Shown piece after piece: positions 52,352 through 56,953 of a DNA stretch of 64,000 nucleotides. The notes below the pieces were generated by a model, which was given only the letters and a program-made list of their open reading frames with translations, was not told the DNA's origin and did no database searches. The position numbers were made by a program, and so were the translations under genes. Source of the stretch: a virus; the IMG/VR virus record IMGVR_UViG_3300045971_000895, positions 1 to 64,000 of that record; one strand, 5' to 3'. Position 1 is the first letter of the stretch, and each line of letters starts with the position of its first letter.

Positions 52352-55300
52352 GTGGCACTCCGAATCCCGAAGTTCATCCAGGACTTGCTCAACGTCCCCA
52401 CCGGGGCGCCGAACCATTACCTGCGATGGGATCCTCTGGCGAAGGAGATCATCAACGACCCCGGAGTCGGCGGTGGCAGCGTCGGCCCCACTGGGCCACA
52501 AGGTCCGACCGGTCCCCCGGGGTACATCGGACTGGATGGCGCGACTGGGCCAATGGGTCCGGCCGGCGTCACGGGACCACGGGGCGCCACGGGGGTCGGT
52601 GCATCGGACCCCAAGGTGCTCATGGTCGCGAAGGCGGGGGCGCCGTTCACCTCCGTGAAGGCCGCGGTCGACTCCATCCTCGACGCTTCTTCGACCAACC
52701 TCTACGTCGTCGAGGTCGGCCCCGGGGTCTACACCGAAGCGCCTTTCACCATTCCTGCCTACGTCACGGTGAAGGGGGTCGGCACTTGGACCTCCGTCGT
52801 TCTTGAGACGAGCGACAACAACAATCACTTCATCTCGCTCTCTGCCAACGGCACGCTGTCCCACGCGTCTCTGGTCGGGCCCACAGGTGTCGGGTTCGCC
52901 GCCATCGACTACACCTCCCCGGGCTTCTCTCCAGGCCTCCTCTACCACCTGGTCATCAAGAAGGGGTACTACGGCATCTGGGTCCACCCGTCATCGTACG
53001 GCACGCTTCATGCGCACGAGGTGGTGAACCAGTACGCCGGCTCGCCGATCCAAGAGTTCATCCGAGCCTCCGGCGCCGGCAACGCAACGCTGCTCTCGTG
53101 CTCGTACATGGCGGGCCCTCCAAGCTCTGTCATCAAGGGCTTTGTCGCAGACGGCGCCGCCACCATCACCATGGATGTGTGCGCGTTCCGTTGTTCGGGA
53201 GCAACGGACGCCGTCTTCGTCGACAACGGTGGCAAGGTCCGACTCAACGCGTGCACCATCTCCGATGCAGTCAACGCCCTGCACATCGGAGCGAACGGGA
53301 CCGGCTCCTCGATCATTGGAGCCGGCTGCGTCATCGGCGACGCCGTCACGACGGACATCTTCATCGAGTCGGCCTCTGGATCGGTCGAGTACGGCGGGCG
53401 GGCTGATCGCGCCAAGATGCTCAACCCGGCCAACGGCTCTCTGCACGGGTCGTTCTCTTCTTTGGCTTCTGGCACGACGGTCTGGGGCGAGCTCTTCCTG
53501 GGCTCGGCCACACAGGACTTCCCGCTCTCCGAGTTCGCCACCTCCAACCGGCAGACGGCGCTGTACCAAGGAGGCGCCGTCACTCGCGGCGCAGGGCGGA
53601 ACCTGGACATCTCTGCGGGCAAGGGCTTCGTCGTCGTCGGCACCACGATGGTGGCCGTGACGTGGGGTGCCACGACGCTGACAGTCCCCGCGGGCGTGGA
53701 GCGCCACGTCGTTGTCGACCAGGCCGGGGTGGTCTCGTTGGCGGTGACGGAACCGAACCCGCGCAACGTCATCGTGTTGGCCGAGGCGGTGGCGAACGCG
53801 ACGACCGTCTACTTCCTCACGAACTACCCGGTCTACATCCCGAACAACCTGGCCTCCCTCCAAGCGTACCTGCTCGAGGTGATCGGCCCGATGAACTACA
53901 CGGGCGGCGACGTCACGAAGCACGCCGCCACCTCTCTTCAGCTCGACGTCTCGGCGTCCGAGTACTACCTGGCGCTGCTGGAGAAGATCTCTGCGCCAGC
54001 GTCCATCGCCAACTTCACGGCGATGTACCGGGACGGCGCCGGAGGGTGGACGACGGTTGCCGGCCAGAGCTCCATCGACACCAGCCTCTACGACAACGGA
54101 ACCGGAACGCTCGCTCCGATTCCTGCGAATCTCTTCAAGCGCGACCTCCTCTTCGTCAACGTCAACGACGTCGGCACCGAGTTCTTCCTGGTCTACGGAC
54201 AGGAGACCTTCGACAACTTCGACCTCGCCCTCAACAATCCACTGTCTCCGTCCTTCCTCGAGACGCTGGCGTGTCGCTTGGCGGGCATCGTGGTCGCACA
54301 GGGGGCGAGCGACATCTCCCTCATCGTCGACCAGCGGCCGCACATTGGTCAGCTCTCGACGGCGGTCTCTGGCCAGCCAGGGCCTCAGGGTGTGACGGGA
54401 GCGACGGGGCCTCAGGGCCCAGCTGGGCCGACAGGTCTTCAGGGCCCGACGGGCAGCCAGGGTTTGACCGGGCCTCAGGGAGTCACCGGGGTCACCGGGC
54501 CGGCAGGCCCGCAAGGCCCCACCGGTGCCGCCATCACCGGCGCGCTGGGCCCCACCGGGGCCCGCGGCGCCACGGGGGTGACTGGGGCGGCAGGCCCGGC
54601 CGGCTCTACGGGAGCGACTGGGCCTGCGGGCTCGCAGGGAGCGACTGGCGCGACGGGCCCCACCGGCCCACAAGGAGCACAGGGACCAACCGGAGCGGCC
54701 ATCACTGGAGCGCAAGGCCCGACAGGGGCTCGTGGCGCTACCGGTGCCACCGGTCCGATGGGCCCGGGCAGTCCTTCGGCGGGCCCACAAGGTTCTCCTG
54801 GTGCGACCGGCCCGGCCGGTCCGCAGGGTGTCACTGGGGCTACCGGCCCCACAGGGCCAGCAGGCGCGACAGGGGCCGCGATCACTGGCGCGGTGGGGCC
54901 GACGGGTGCAGTCGGGCCGACCGGGGATCATGGCGTCGACGGAGTGACGGGCGCCACCGGACCTCAGGGCCCTCAGGGCGTCACTGGCGCGACTGGGCCT
55001 CAGGGAGCTCAGGGAGTGACCGGGGCCACCGGACCTACCGGCGCCCGCGGCGCCACAGGCATCACCGGTGCTACCGGCCCCACGGGGGCCGTCGGTCCGC
55101 AGGGAACCACGGGTGCCACCGGGCCGCTGGGGCCTCAGGGGCCGACAGGGGCTGCCATCACCGGGGCGCAGGGGCCGCAGGGCGTGACGGGTGCCACAGG
55201 GCCTGTGGGCCCTGCTGGGGCGACGGGCGCAGCCATCACGGGGGCACAGGGACCGACGGGCGCTCAAGGGCCGCAGGGAGCCACAGGCGTGACGGGCCCG

Positions 55301-56953
55301 ATGGGTCCCGGCAGCCCCTCGGCCGGTCCACAAGGCTCGCCCGGTGTCCCCGGCCCGACCGGTGCGGCTGGCCCGCAGGGCGTGACGGGCGCCACCGGCC
55401 CGACGGGCCCGGCTGGCGGGCCTGGCTCGACGGGAGCGACTGGTCCGGCAGGGGCGCAAGGAGTGACGGGAGCGACAGGTCCGGTTGGTCCCCAAGGCCC
55501 GACTGGGGCGGCCATCACCGGCGGCACCGGCCCCACGGGGGCGCGCGGCGCCACAGGGGTGACCGGTGCTACCGGACCTCAGGGGCCGGCGGGCCCGACA
55601 GGTGCTGCGATCACCGGCGCGGATGGCGTGCAGGGCAGCCCCGGGCCGACGGGTCCTCAGGGCCCCTCTGGTGCCGCCGGCGCGACGGGGCCCGCTGGTC
55701 CGACCGGCTCTGCCGGCGTGACTGGGGCGACTGGCCCTGCCGGCGCTCCCGGCCCGACGGGGTCTGCCCTCACCGGCGCCACTGGTCCCGCGGGTGCTGC
55801 CGGTCCGACCGGCGCGCAGGGAGTCACCGGGGCAACGGGGCCGGCAGGGCCTGCCGGTCCGACAGGTGCGGGGGTCACAGGTGCCACGGGCCCGGCAGGC
55901 GCTGCGGGTCCCACTGGGTCCATCGGACCAGCTGGTCCGACCGGATCGGCAATCACCGGGGCCACTGGTCCGGCTGGTGCCGCTGGCCCCACAGGTTCCA
56001 TCGGGCCAGCTGGCCCGACAGGCGCGGCCATCACCGGTGCGACGGGCCCCGCAGGCCCGCAGGGAGTGACTGGGGTCACCGGGCCCACTGGGCCGGCGGG
56101 GGCAACCGGAGCGACTGGTGTCACCGGGGCTCGAGGTGCAACTGGCGTGACGGGAGCCACAGGCCCGCAGGGCTCACCCGGACCTACCGGTGCTGCCATC
56201 ACCGGCGCCATCGGACCGCAAGGTGTCACTGGGGCGACAGGCCCGATAGGTCCTGCTGGCCCCACTGGCGCTGCCATCACAGGGGCCACAGGTCCTGCGG
56301 GTCCGCAGGGAGTGACAGGGGCCACGGGCCCCGCTGGCGCGGGCGGTGGTGGACCGAAGACGCTGAACCAGGCCTACTGGGACGGTGGTACCGGGCCTGG
56401 CGGTGTGGGCGGAGAGATCGATCTCAACGCCACCATCGGCCCTGTTCGACTCATCGGGTCGGGAGCAGCCTCCGGCGGCGTCTACTTCCAGGTGGCAGAC
56501 GCCGCCGGCGGCCTGCCGCTCTTCGAGGTGCGAGAGGGTGGCGGCCGCGGCGTCGTCATGGTCCCGCGCATCGAGCTCGGCGGCACGCCTCTTACTCCCG
56601 CGAGCTTCTCGCTCTCCCGTTGGGGCTCTGGGGCGTCGTCTCCCGGCAACTACGGCGTGACGGGAGTCTCCTGCTCAGATGCCGGCGGTTCCTTCACCGT
56701 GATGGCAGGGCAGACGGGGTACACGCTCAACCCTCTCATCACCCTCAACTTCAGGGACGGGCCTCGAGCAGGTAACCCGTTCATCATCGCTCGCGTGATG
56801 GCACCTTGCGTGCCTACTGGTGCCACGCTCTGGGGGTACAACACCCTCAACCCTGTCCTCGTCACCCAGAGCCCGACCTTCGTGACTCTGCTCATCCCGG
56901 GGACTCCGACCAACCGCGCCTACCTCACGATTCAGTTCGTGTCGTTCGCGTAG
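52352..56953 (+). CDS. tail fibre or spike with a right-handed beta-helix (pectin-lyase-like) domain, a roughly 660-residue collagen-like G-X-Y domain and a C-terminal globular domain
   Basis: 1533 aa. Short collagen stretch near the N-terminus, then beta-helix repeats. Uninterrupted GPT/GAT/GVT triplets over aa ~670-1330 with a recurrent GAAITGA register shift. GTG start. Confidence 0.85.
54370..56350 (+). repeat. tandem 9-nt-periodic collagen (GXY)n coding repeats
   Basis: About 2 kb of ggN-ccN-acN-type triplet repeats with higher-order repeats of about 90-150 nt. Confidence 0.85.

What the first reader, a model, noticed from the sequence alone, without database searches (positions are those of the whole stretch)
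52352..56953. Tail fibre combining a pectin-lyase-like beta-helix with a very long collagen-like stalk punctuated by a regular GAAITGA stutter
About 660 residues are uninterrupted Gly-X-Y, dominated by GPT/GAT/GVT with Thr at the Y position. The motif GAAITGA recurs about 14 times and shifts the Gly register, as does PGSPSAGPQ. This resembles the BclA and Bacillus exosporium collagen-like proteins and Streptococcus Scl proteins, but here it is fused to a depolymerase-like beta-helix domain and a C-terminal globular domain. The nucleotide-level tandem repeats also make the region prone to length variation.
Basis: seen in the sequence. Interest (0 to 1): 0.6.

Follow-up and report, generated by a model that had tools for sequence, protein, structure and literature searches.

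The report
Long collagen-like fibre of a huge phage
This gene encodes a very long, thread-like collagen-type fibre of a giant bacterial virus, carrying a sugar-binding-type domain near its base and a small knob at its tip; such fibres are a known kind, but this one has a strictly conserved break motif that probably acts as a hinge, and it always sits beside sugar-adding enzymes.

Summary
The ORF 52352..56953 (+), 1533 aa, is real and intact. Layout: 41-aa conserved N-terminal anchor; 14 Gly-X-Y triplets; a 590-aa module (right-handed beta-helix plus two beta domains); a 661-aa collagen-like region; a 199-aa beta-sandwich knob.

The collagen is not uninterrupted. It has 15 register breaks: 13 of GAAITG type (10 exact) and 2 GPGSPSAG. 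Spacing is irregular, 6-29 triplets.

The window looks like a high-GC huge phage. Syntenic orthologues in four other assemblies keep the anchor, collagen and knob. The beta-helix module is present in one and absent in two, so it is a swappable insert. Collagen length ranges from about 570 to 1020 residues.

All 36 exact GAAITG copies in three phages use different codons. Synonymous changes outnumber non-synonymous ones 47:10. The frame and the motif are therefore under protein-level selection. DNA-level repetition is weak.

The knob is not BclA/C1q-like by structure search.

In all seven loci examined, including two distant ones, the fibre gene sits beside sugar-modifying enzymes. In five of them these include a GmaR-like GT2-TPR enzyme. 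This suggests, but does not prove, BclA-style O-glycosylation of the Thr-rich helix.

Verdict: a new variant of a known kind, of moderate interest.

The parts
52352..52474 (+). N-terminal anchor, aa 1-41 ([38 protein letters not shown]...). Inferred to be the virion-attachment segment.
   Evidence: The first 37 residues are identical in the L004 orthologue, whereas the C-terminal domain is only 86% identical. It is also conserved in L005 and P0020. There is no hydrophobic signal peptide and no Pfam or PHROG hit.
52475..52600 (+). Short collagen-like linker, aa 42-83 (14 Gly-X-Y triplets).
   Evidence: The same short collagen precedes the module in P0020.
52601..53476 (+). Right-handed parallel beta-helix (pectin-lyase fold), about aa 84-375. 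It forms the first part of the 590-aa module.
   Evidence: AlphaFold2 on a 13-sequence alignment gives mean pLDDT 83.5, with regular beta rungs over module residues 5-300. Foldseek against the PDB matches Geobacillus virus E2 ORF18 (E 7e-7), phi812 baseplate chains, carrot, Aspergillus and Butyrivibrio pectin methylesterases, AlgE4, and the K2-2 and CBA120 tailspikes. No Pfam hit passes threshold.
53477..54370 (+). Two further beta-rich domains of the module, about aa 376-673, ending in the conserved motif IVDQRP.(I/L)GQL.
   Evidence: This part also occurs alone in P0008 and P0016. The whole 590-aa module matches 990-1290-aa viral proteins in BFVD at E 6e-44 to 2e-32.
54371..56353 (+). Long collagen-like stalk, aa 674-1334 (661 aa). 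It would be about 189 nm long as a triple helix at 0.286 nm per residue.
   Evidence: The coding frame is verified. Against the L004 orthologue, the last 82 codons differ at codon positions 1/2/3 by 7/6/54, with 47 synonymous and 10 non-synonymous codon differences.
54524..56284 (+). Thirteen G-[AS]-[AG]-[IVL]-T-G breaks, each with 4 residues between two Gly. They start at aa 725, 781, 841, 933, 959, 1052, 1084, 1137, 1172, 1198, 1224, 1280 and 1306. The first is at nt 54524-54541 and the last at nt 56267-56284.
   Evidence: All 13 copies use a different nucleotide version. The consensus context is GP[QA][10 protein letters not shown][QTA]GP across 36 exact copies in three phages.
54761..54784 (+). 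First GPGSPSAG break (aa 804-811), inside the conserved motif [17 protein letters not shown].
   Evidence: Also present in L004 and L005.
55304..55327 (+). Second GPGSPSAG break (aa 985-992).
56354..56950 (+). C-terminal knob, aa 1335-1533. It begins with the motif L(N/Q)QAY directly after the collagen, followed by a beta-sandwich. Inferred roles are trimerisation/nucleation and receptor binding.
57028..60213 (+). Adjacent 1061-aa multidomain enzyme: GT2, TPR, SAM-methyltransferase, then GT4/GT1. Candidate fibre glycosyltransferase (inferred).
   Evidence: Pfam. The best PDB sequence hit for the N-terminal part is GmaR, with E 7e-16 over residues 3-58 only, plus TPR matches. The same gene follows the fibre gene in L004, L005, L006 and L010.
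60210..61352 (+). GT1-family glycosyltransferase (380 aa), part of the conserved cassette.
61199..62836 (+). B12-binding radical-SAM enzyme (methyltransferase-like), part of the conserved cassette. The true start is probably near 61349, as in the orthologues (495-496 aa).
   Evidence: The same gene type lies next to the distant fibre gene in L008.

Best explanation
The gene encodes a homotrimeric virion fibre, most likely a tail or receptor-binding fibre, of an uncultivated high-GC huge phage.

Shown:
- The domain order is anchor, short collagen, beta-helix module, 661-aa interrupted collagen, then a beta-sandwich knob.
- The frame and the break motif are under purifying selection.
- The beta-helix module is present or absent among orthologues.
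- The gene is always linked to sugar-modifying enzymes.

Inferred mechanism:
- The C-terminal knob trimerises and nucleates zipper-like folding of the Gly-X-Y chains from C to N, as in other collagens. It also serves as the distal receptor-binding tip.
- The approximately 190-nm triple helix is a long-reach tether.
- The 15 breaks coincide in all three identical chains. They would therefore act as local hinges or register resets that make the thread flexible.
- The conserved 41-aa N-terminus plugs into the virion.
- The beta-helix module next to it binds, and perhaps cleaves, a surface polysaccharide once the particle has been drawn close to the cell.
- The 110 Thr residues of the helix, 97 of them at Y positions, are probably O-glycosylated by the adjacent GT2-TPR-methyltransferase-GT4 enzyme and its partners. 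The helix lacks hydroxyproline and has almost no charged residues, so glycosylation would stabilise it, as in BclA.
For: Gene and frame:
- The ORF is intact, and so are the orthologous ORFs of 1221-1567 aa in four independent assemblies.
- Codon-position differences are 7/6/54, and synonymous versus non-synonymous codon differences are 47:10.

Phage context:
- The window carries a class II RNR (phrog_367, E 1.5e-183) and an AAA protein (phrog_8638, E 1e-127), and most ORFs have no family match.
- The orthologous contig is listed in IMG/VR.
- Module homologues in GenBank phage records occur only in 462-642-kb uncultured phages.

Fibre nature:
- The module has the beta-helix fold of tailspikes.
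- Its sequence homologues P0001-P0007 and P0014 continue into DDHTQY/HxH-type segments of the kind I recall from phage tail fibres.
- The knob resembles tailspike C-terminal domains, lectins and the pyocin fibre tip.
- There is no signal peptide or LPXTG motif.

Polarity:
- The first 37 N-terminal residues are identical to L004, while the knob is 86% identical.

Modularity:
- L004 lacks the module. L005 carries a different inserted knob. P0020 has the module plus an HxH segment.

Hinge:
- All 36 exact GAAITG copies have distinct codon versions, in a fixed context.
- Interruptions that coincide in several chains increase collagen IV flexibility (bioRxiv 10.1101/2020.09.27.315929).
- C-to-N nucleation, and the need to renucleate after an interruption, are described in PMC11923368.

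Glycosylation:
- The fibre gene is flanked by GT, FkbM-methyltransferase, B12-rSAM or C-methyltransferase, and NDP-sugar epimerase/dehydratase genes. This holds in the window, L004, L005, L006 and L010, and in the distant L008 and L009, whose knobs are 33% identical.
- The best PDB hit of the GT2 N-terminus is GmaR, which I recall as the flagellin O-GlcNAc transferase of Listeria, and TPR repeats follow it.
- BclA glycosylation and Thr-rich Y positions are described in PMC8968730.
Against: - No structural hallmark gene (capsid, sheath, baseplate) was identified in the window, so virion location, and tail versus head attachment, are not shown.
- The non-collagen domains have no Pfam, PHROG, NCBIfam or PDB sequence match.
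- Across the distant module homologues, the only invariant acidic or basic residue is one Glu (E46 of the module). A depolymerase active site is therefore not evident.
- The GmaR match covers only 56 residues.
- Phage glycosyltransferases can also modify DNA or host surface polysaccharide (PMC12619734).
- A proximal beta-helix with a 190-nm stalk beyond it is an unusual geometry for a depolymerase.
Confidence: 0.62

Rival explanations
1. It is a virion fibre that is not a tail fibre. It could be a capsid (head) fibre, a whisker or a 'hair' that decorates the particle and mediates long-range adhesion, as collagen-like gp12 does on SPP1 capsids.
For: - Collagen-like capsid decoration proteins exist; SPP1 gp12 is described in PMC7602432.
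- The gene lies among transcription-like genes (sigma-like, phrog_351) and sugar-metabolism genes, not next to recognisable baseplate genes.
- Fibres of about 200-300 nm are long for tail fibres.
Against: - Homologues of the module carry the DDHTQY/HxH segments that I recall from phage tail fibres.
- The best fold matches are tailspikes, baseplate chains and tail fibres.
- The homologue in LR756500 sits in a cluster with another fibre-like gene.
Confidence: 0.2
2. The glycosyltransferase cassette has nothing to do with the fibre and the collagen is unglycosylated. The cassette would modify phage DNA or the host envelope, and the adjacency would reflect shared late expression only.
For: - Phage glycosyltransferases are known to act on DNA and on host serotype (PMC12619734).
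- Recombinant E. coli prophage collagens form stable trimers without glycosylation (PMC3368898).
- Thr at the Y position is in any case the commonest choice in bacterial collagens.
Against: - The adjacency survives across loci whose knobs are only 33% identical and whose other neighbouring genes differ. In L008 and L009, GT4/GT1 genes lie upstream, an FkbM gene lies immediately downstream, and an NDP-sugar epimerase/dehydratase lies nearby.
- A GT2 domain followed by TPR repeats is, as I recall it, the architecture of a protein O-glycosyltransferase, and the best PDB hit is GmaR.
- The helix has only 9 charged residues in 661 and no hydroxyproline system was found, so it needs some other stabiliser.
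Confidence: 0.35
3. The fusion of the beta-helix module with the collagen is an assembly or annotation artefact: a chimeric join through repeats, or a wrong reading frame in GC-rich repeat DNA.
For: - Long alternative ORFs overlap the region: 53662..56775 (+), 1037 aa, and 52991..55495 (-), 834 aa.
- Public gene calls for the orthologues are broken. Only the last 199 aa were called in L004, and a wrong-frame 570-aa ORF was called in L005.
- Repeats invite misassembly.
Against: - P0020, from an independent sample, has the same domain order and is 52% identical over the anchor, short collagen and module.
- The anchor, module and knob are all in one frame.
- The synonymous-dominated divergence, 7/6/54 by codon position, identifies the collagen frame.
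- The longest exact DNA repeat is only 17 nt, so assembly through the region is not difficult.
Confidence: 0.03
4. It is a bacterial or prophage-borne cell-surface or spore-surface adhesin of the BclA/Scl type, not a phage particle component.
For: - The Thr-rich Gly-X-Y composition and the presumed glycosylation resemble BclA.
- A major-vault-protein-like gene and other cell-like genes are present in the window.
Against: - There is no signal peptide, LPXTG motif or C1q-like domain.
- The gene content of the window and its relatives is phage-like.
- The tblastn search of the phage-record collection found the module only in three uncultured huge phages, and BFVD holds full-length structural matches in viral proteins.
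Confidence: 0.04

Closest known systems
BclA, the collagen-like exosporium glycoprotein of Bacillus anthracis/cereus (and C. difficile BclA1-3 with the SgtA glycosyltransferase)
   Same: Gly-X-Thr-rich collagen with almost no charged residues. A globular C-terminal domain sits directly after the helix. There is no signal peptide. It is linked to dedicated glycosyltransferases, and its length varies between strains (PMC8968730 and PMC7157674).
   Different: The knob shows no C1q/TNF-like match. The N-terminus is unrelated. The helix is several times longer, at 661-1020 residues. It carries 15 conserved breaks and a 590-aa beta-helix module. The context is phage rather than spore. Glycosylation here is only inferred.
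EPclA-D collagen-like side-tail-fibre proteins of E. coli O157:H7 prophages (Ghosh et al. 2012, PMC3368898)
   Same: A trimeric phage fibre with N-globular, collagen stalk and C-terminal trimerisation domains. It has a hinged stalk, Col domains of variable length, and a conserved single interruption.
   Different: Pfam finds no PfN (PF08400), PfC (PF06820) or Pf2 domain. EPcl triplets are charged (GPK, GER, GET) and unglycosylated, whereas here they are Thr/Gln/Ala-rich. The EPclA molecule is about 62 nm long, against about 190 nm of helix here.
Beta-helix tailspikes and tail-fibre depolymerases (P22, Sf6 and HK620 TSPs, CBA120 TSP2, Klebsiella K2-2 TSP, Agrobacterium phage 7-7-1 fibres) and pectin methylesterases
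   Same: The right-handed parallel beta-helix fold of residues 84 to about 375, and the N-terminal 'PGxYxE' cap motif shared with pectinesterases.
   Different: There is no sequence-level membership and no conserved catalytic residues. The helix is placed proximally, and a 190-nm collagen stalk and a knob lie distal to it.
G4G-type interruptions of non-fibrillar (type IV) collagen
   Same: GAAITG places four residues, one of them hydrophobic, between two Gly. From my own recollection, the model type IV break is GAAVMG; I could not verify this in the library. Interruptions that coincide in several chains raise local flexibility.
   Different: Here a single motif is reused 13-16 times per chain in a homotrimer and is conserved to the residue across phages. 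Type IV breaks are heterogeneous.
PHROG families of collagen-repeat tail proteins (phrog_6320, 5073, 819, 8745; 'collagen like minor tail' phrog_1806 and 30509)
   Same: Strong matches through the Gly-X-Y repeats, with E 3e-130 to 8e-56. This shows that collagen-repeat tail fibres are common in phages.
   Different: The matches cover only the repeats. The anchor, module and knob alone hit no PHROG family.
GmaR, the GT2-TPR flagellin O-GlcNAc transferase of Listeria (compared with the neighbouring gene)
   Same: An N-terminal GT2 domain followed by TPR repeats. GmaR is the best PDB sequence hit, at E 7e-16.
   Different: The match spans only 56 residues. The phage enzyme adds a SAM-methyltransferase domain and a GT4/GT1 domain. 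Its substrate is unknown.

Membership tests
Collagen triple-helix repeat proteins (Pfam PF01391) | Gly at every third residue over long runs, scoring above the Pfam gathering threshold | tested here: met
   233.4 bits against a cut-off of 27.2, E 1.4e-70, in 13 stretches. There are 230 triplets in runs of at least 3.
Collagen triple-helix repeat proteins (Pfam PF01391) | Forms a trimeric triple helix | not testable with these tools
   This needs circular dichroism, SEC-MALS or EM on recombinant protein.
BclA / exosporium collagen-like glycoproteins | Gly-X-Thr-dominated repeats with few charged residues | tested here: met
   Thr fills 50% of Y positions. There are 9 charged residues in 661.
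BclA / exosporium collagen-like glycoproteins | C-terminal C1q/TNF-like jelly-roll trimerisation domain | tested here: not met
BclA / exosporium collagen-like glycoproteins | O-glycosylation of the collagen-like region by dedicated glycosyltransferases | not testable with these tools
   Only genomic linkage to a glycosylation cassette could be shown, in 7 loci.
Streptococcal Scl proteins | Signal peptide and C-terminal LPXTG cell-wall anchor | tested here: not met
   There is no LPXTG motif. The maximum Kyte-Doolittle hydropathy (15-residue window) in the first 65 residues is 0.71.
EPcl prophage collagen-like tail proteins | PfN (PF08400) and PfC (PF06820) or Pf2 (PF03406) domains flanking the collagen | tested here: not met
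   Pfam reports Collagen only, both for the full protein and for the isolated domains.
Pectin-lyase-fold tailspike / depolymerase | Right-handed parallel beta-helix fold | tested here: met
   AlphaFold2 pLDDT 83.5. Foldseek gives probability 1.0 to tailspikes, pectin methylesterases and AlgE4, with E 7e-7 to 1e-3 and target-normalised TM 0.33-0.44.
Pectin-lyase-fold tailspike / depolymerase | Conserved catalytic acidic residues and enzymatic cleavage of a polysaccharide | tested here: inconclusive
   D103, D192, H129 and R214 are invariant among close homologues. Only E46 survives when the three distant homologues are added. There is no Pfam hit above threshold. Activity cannot be tested here.
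Phage tail fibre (virion component on the tail or baseplate) | Physical presence on the tail, or homology to an experimentally located tail fibre | tested here: inconclusive
   PHROG 'tail fiber' hits arise from the collagen only. Indirect support comes from the HxH/DDHTQY segments in module homologues, and from fold matches to tail fibres and baseplate chains. No virion data exist.
GmaR-type protein O-glycosyltransferase (neighbouring gene 57028..60213) | GT2 catalytic domain followed by TPR repeats | tested here: met
   Pfam finds Glycos_transf_2 and TPR_2/TPR_19. The best PDB hit is GmaR at E 7e-16, with TPR proteins following. The protein substrate has not been tested.

The most novel reading that the evidence does not exclude
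A lineage of huge phages, together with more distant relatives, would carry a dedicated cassette that builds a 0.2-0.3 micrometre collagen thread. The thread would be O-glycosylated, probably with methylated sugars, and would be a viral counterpart of the BclA spore nap. The strictly conserved GAAITG motif would be a programmed hinge, or possibly a recognition site for the modifying enzymes. Receptor-binding modules such as the beta-helix module and extra knobs would be swapped in and out of the collagen. This would be the first glycosylated collagen described for a bacteriophage. It would also be a natural example of a sequence-encoded flexibility code in a homotrimeric collagen.
Probability: 0.3. 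Interest if true: 0.7.

Novelty: new variant of a known kind. Interest (0 to 1): 0.45.

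Why it matters
Collagen-repeat fibres are common in phages, so the basic finding is ordinary. Four things stand out.

- **Scale.** The helix has 661 residues here and up to about 1020 in an orthologue. That corresponds to roughly 190-290 nm, comparable with animal fibrillar collagen.
- **One reused break motif.** A single break motif is reused and kept identical at the protein level while its codons drift. This gives a clean natural test case for how interruptions tune collagen mechanics and folding.
- **Modular design.** A beta-helix receptor module is inserted into, or absent from, an otherwise conserved anchor-collagen-knob scaffold among close relatives. 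This is a route to host-range change and a possible design template for engineered fibres.
- **Glycosylation cassette.** The gene is always linked to sugar-modifying enzymes. If these act on the fibre, virion glycosylation would extend to huge phages, and it would explain how a collagen poor in charge and lacking hydroxyproline is stabilised.

There is also a practical point. Public gene callers miss or mis-frame these genes, so collagen-like fibres are probably under-counted in metagenomic phage catalogues.

Tried and rejected
- Megablast of nt 40000-64000 against 50,697 phage records found no match.
- Pfam, PHROG and NCBIfam searches of the isolated anchor, module and knob gave no hit above threshold.
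- PDB sequence and profile searches were unproductive. The knob gave no match at E<=10. The module gave only a pectinesterase match at E 0.12.
- Searches of the upstream 1153-aa and 995-aa proteins for structural identity found nothing in Pfam, PHROG or the PDB. The fibre's virion module could therefore not be placed.
- The look-up of P0009, the 100%-identical knob fragment, found nothing on record.
- The genome-contig scan with the knob profile failed because no stretch was conserved enough. No host could be inferred.
- I looked for a prolyl hydroxylase or other 2OG oxygenase among about 35 of the larger window ORFs and found none.
- I could not verify in the literature my recollection that the type IV collagen model break is GAAVM. 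It is marked as unverified.
- I checked whether the 'moraphage' lineage paper describes these fibres. It does not mention collagen.
- I rejected a C1q/BclA-like knob, slippage-prone tandem DNA, an uninterrupted helix and a regular stutter, for the reasons given in the observation check.

Full report
**Observation**

It has a GTG start with an AGAGG site 8 nt upstream. Parsing the translation gives five parts:
- residues 1-41, non-repetitive;
- residues 42-83, 14 Gly-X-Y triplets;
- residues 84-673, non-collagen;
- residues 674-1334, collagen-like;
- residues 1335-1533, non-collagen.

Pfam reports only Collagen (PF01391, E 1.4e-70, 13 stretches). In the long collagen region Pro fills 44% of X positions and Thr 50% of Y positions. 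The commonest triplets are [12 protein letters not shown] and GVT. Only 9 of 661 residues are charged. This is the composition reported as typical of Gram-positive bacterial collagens, where Thr fills 48% of Y positions (PMC8968730 and PMC3368898).

**Corrections to the observation**

The 661 residues are not uninterrupted. There are 15 breaks. Thirteen have the form G-[AS]-[AG]-[IVL]-T-G, with four residues between two glycines. Ten of these are exact GAAITG and nine are GAAITGA. Two breaks are GPGSPSAG, inside a conserved [17 protein letters not shown] motif. The longest perfect run is 30 triplets.

Spacing between breaks is 6 to 29 triplets, so the stutter is not regular. A 26-residue unit (GAAITG plus 7 triplets) does recur in three pairs.

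At the DNA level the repeats are strongly degenerate:
- TRF finds only arrays of at most 2.7 copies at 71-81% match.
- Repeat families are 60-77% identical.
- The longest exact direct repeat in 1983 nt is 17 nt.
- GC3 falls from 0.86 in the flanking domains and the neighbouring gene to 0.68 in the collagen, because all four codons of Gly, Thr, Pro and Ala are used.

The claim that nucleotide tandem repeats make the region slippage-prone is therefore not supported by the sequence. Length does nevertheless differ among relatives.

**Is the frame real?**

GC-rich repeat DNA produces long spurious ORFs. A 1037-aa ORF in another + frame and an 834-aa ORF on the - strand both overlap the region. Three lines of evidence fix the collagen frame.

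First, the anchor, the module and the knob each have homologues and all lie in this one frame.

Second, I compared the last 82 collagen codons with the syntenic orthologue in L004. The two genes differ at codon positions 1/2/3 by 7/6/54, with 47 synonymous and 10 non-synonymous codon differences. The knob gives 21/13/66.

Third, intact orthologous ORFs of 1221-1567 aa occur in four independent assemblies.

Public gene calls for those records are wrong. Only the last 199 aa were called in L004, and an Arg-rich wrong-frame 570-aa ORF was called in L005.

**Source and relatives**

The window is about 63% GC. It carries a class II ribonucleotide reductase (phrog_367, E 1.5e-183), a helicase, an AAA protein (phrog_8638, E 1e-127) and a sigma-like protein. 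Most ORFs have no family match. There is no nucleotide match to known phages.

tblastn with residues 84-673 hits only three uncultured huge phages of 462, 635 and 642 kb, at 25-32% identity. The knob leads to syntenic loci on contigs of 153 kb (L004, also listed in IMG/VR as L007), 196 kb (L005), 25 kb (L006) and 26 kb (L010, which encodes P0020). I conclude that this is a huge-phage genome fragment.

**Comparative anatomy of the fibre**

All orthologues share three elements: the N-terminal segment ([18 protein letters not shown]...), a long interrupted collagen and the C-terminal knob. The first 37 residues are identical in L004. They differ in what lies between:
- L004 (1267 aa) has no beta-helix module and about 1020 collagen residues.
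- L005 and L006 (1221 aa) have no module, but carry an extra 130-aa knob inserted before a short last collagen segment. They also have an additional 943-aa gene downstream.
- P0020 (1567 aa) has the same order as the window, and is 52% identical over the anchor, short collagen and module. It keeps a DDHVQY/HxH segment between the module and about 570 collagen residues.

So the beta-helix module is an optional cassette inserted near the N-terminal end of a conserved anchor-collagen-knob scaffold. The P0020 architecture, from an independent sample, argues against a chimeric assembly.

The anchor is more conserved than the knob: 37 of 37 residues against 86% identity. This fits a constant virion-attachment end and a faster-evolving distal end. 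That polarity is an inference.

**The module (residues 84-673)**

Sequence homologues at 39-49% identity are proteins of 930-1050 aa. After the module they continue into DDHTQY...HxH segments of the kind I recall from phage tail fibres, and they end in small knobs. One more distant homologue (P0015) and the LR756502 protein also contain collagen repeats.

AlphaFold2 on a 13-sequence alignment gave mean pLDDT 83.5. The model shows beta rungs over module residues 5-300, followed by two further beta domains.

Foldseek against the PDB returned the following, all at probability 1.0:
- Geobacillus virus E2 ORF18;
- phi812 baseplate chains;
- pectin methylesterases;
- AlgE4;
- the K2-2, CBA120, Sf6 and HK620 tailspikes;
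- Agrobacterium phage 7-7-1 tail fibres.

Against BFVD the whole module aligned to 990-1290-aa viral proteins at E 6e-44 to 2e-32.

Sequence-level membership is not supported. Catalysis is also unsupported. Acidic and basic residues invariant among close homologues (D103, D192, H129, R214) are not kept in the distant ones.

**The knob (residues 1335-1533)**

An exhaustive profile search of 1.84 billion representatives found only 52 relatives, 12 of them at E<=1e-10. In the full-length members I read, the domain follows Gly-X-Y repeats directly, through a conserved L-Q-x-A-Y junction. It has no Pfam, PHROG, NCBIfam or PDB sequence match.

A domain that always sits at the C-terminal end of a collagen is the expected trimerisation and nucleation element. 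Collagens nucleate at the C-terminus and zip towards the N-terminus, and they must renucleate after interruptions (PMC11923368). That the same domain binds the receptor is inferred from the fold matches and from its faster divergence.

**The stutter**

Across the window, L004 and L005 there are 36 exact GAAITG copies, and 44 if variants are counted. Within each gene every copy has a different nucleotide version. The flanking context is fixed: GP[QA][10 protein letters not shown][QTA]GP. The two terminal copies occupy the same positions in the window and in L004.

The motif is therefore maintained by selection on the peptide, not by recent DNA duplication.

Structurally it is a 'four residues between glycines' interruption containing one hydrophobic residue. 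From memory this is the same class as the GAAVMG break used as a type IV collagen model. I could not verify that in the library.

[quoted passage not shown] In a homotrimer every break coincides in all three chains. I therefore interpret the 15 breaks as hinges or register resets along a thread of about 189 nm (661 x 0.286 nm). A role as a recognition site for a partner or a modifying enzyme is not excluded.

**The neighbours**

The next gene lies 75 nt downstream of the fibre gene, with no terminator-like site between them. It encodes a 1061-aa protein with GT2, TPR, SAM-methyltransferase and GT4/GT1 domains. The best PDB sequence hit for its N-terminal part is GmaR, with E 7e-16 over residues 3-58 only, followed by TPR matches. 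From my own knowledge GmaR is the flagellin O-GlcNAc transferase of Listeria. A GT1 enzyme and a B12-binding radical-SAM enzyme follow.

The same set follows the fibre gene in L004, L005, L006 and L010. An extra FkbM methyltransferase is present in L004-L006.

The pattern also holds in two distant viral contigs, L008 (74 kb) and L009 (42.5 kb), whose knobs are only 33% identical. Their collagen fibre genes have different N-terminal domains, yet they are again flanked by related enzymes:
- GT4/GT1 glycosyltransferases upstream;
- an FkbM methyltransferase immediately downstream;
- a B12-rSAM enzyme (L008), or a C-methyltransferase (Pfam Methyltransf_13/14) with a cupin protein (L009);
- an NDP-sugar epimerase/dehydratase.

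This conserved linkage is good guilt-by-association evidence that the fibre is glycosylated, probably with methylated sugars. Supporting considerations:
- The helix contains 110 Thr residues, 97 of them at Y positions.
- It has almost no charge pairs.
- No prolyl hydroxylase was found among the roughly 35 larger window ORFs scanned.

The proposed parallel is BclA and its glycosyltransferases. Phage virion glycosylation has a precedent in mycobacteriophages (Freeman et al. 2023, as cited in PMC12619734). This remains unproven. The enzymes could instead act on DNA or on the host envelope.

**Verdict**

This is a real gene for a collagen-like fibre of a huge phage, and a member of a well-known general kind. 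PHROG holds many collagen-repeat tail-fibre families, which match here at E down to 3e-130 through the repeats. Four things set it apart:
- the very long helix;
- the reused, residue-conserved break motif;
- the cassette-like insertion of a beta-helix module into a conserved anchor-collagen-knob scaffold;
- the constant linkage to a glycosylation cassette.

Tail location, depolymerase activity, the hinge function and glycosylation are all inferred, not shown. I rate it a new variant of a known kind, interest 0.45.

Noticed in passing
window 5201..7840 (-): An 879-aa ORF matches the Pfam major-vault-protein shoulder domain (PF11978, E 6.8e-28, aa 559-668) and a Vault_3 repeat (PF17795, E 1.5e-9). 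A vault-protein-like gene in a huge-phage-like genome is unusual.
   Followed up: no
L004 6797..10600; L005 7355..11020 (public records Ga0485825_0000011, ERZ27247700 k141_847058): Automated gene calls in the public records miss the collagen fibre gene. Only the last 199 aa were called in L004. In L005 a wrong-frame Arg-rich 570-aa ORF and the last 339 aa were called. Collagen-like phage fibres in GC-rich metagenomes are probably systematically under-annotated.
   Followed up: yes
window 53662..56775 (+) and 52991..55495 (-): Long spurious ORFs of 1037 aa and 834 aa, both Arg/Gly/Pro-rich, overlap the collagen region in other frames. They are a by-product of GC-rich Gly-X-Y coding and a trap for gene callers.
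   Followed up: partly
window 54371..56353: GC3 drops to 0.68 inside the collagen, against 0.86 in the flanking domains and the next gene, while overall GC rises to 0.75. Synonymous codons are spread almost evenly, which minimises exact DNA repeats; the longest is 17 nt.
   Followed up: partly
window 61199..62836 (+); L008 7817..9349; L009 7957..9189: A B12-binding radical-SAM enzyme is conserved beside the fibre and glycosyltransferase genes. In L009 a C-methyltransferase (Pfam Methyltransf_13/14) takes its place. Together with FkbM methyltransferases this suggests a C- or O-methylated sugar.
   Followed up: partly
L005 11030..13861: An extra 943-aa gene of unknown function, rich in Thr, Ser and Ala, lies between the fibre gene and the FkbM methyltransferase in L005 and L006. 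It is absent from the window and from L004. A small I-HmuI NUMOD-like ORF lies upstream in those loci.
   Followed up: no
window 30289..31701 (-) and 50434..51297 (+): One ORF encodes a YpsA-SLOG/DprA-like protein (470 aa). Another encodes a sigma-factor-like protein (287 aa, phrog_351, E 3e-7), four genes upstream of the fibre and conserved in synteny in all relatives.
   Followed up: no
L003 3430..9243 (LR756502, 642-kb uncultured phage): A 1937-aa fibre protein carries three tandem beta-helix modules. Short collagen stretches precede them, and a GATGSQGIQ-type collagen lies before a C-terminal knob. Combining a beta-helix module with collagen is therefore not unique to the window's lineage.
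   Followed up: partly
window 40355..43816, 44026..45465, 45556..48543 (+): Three large conserved ORFs of 1153, 479 and 995 aa lie upstream in the same gene string. They have no Pfam or PHROG match, and the 1153- and 995-aa proteins also have no PDB sequence match. The 995-aa gene is syntenic in all relatives. They may be structural or transcription proteins.
   Followed up: partly
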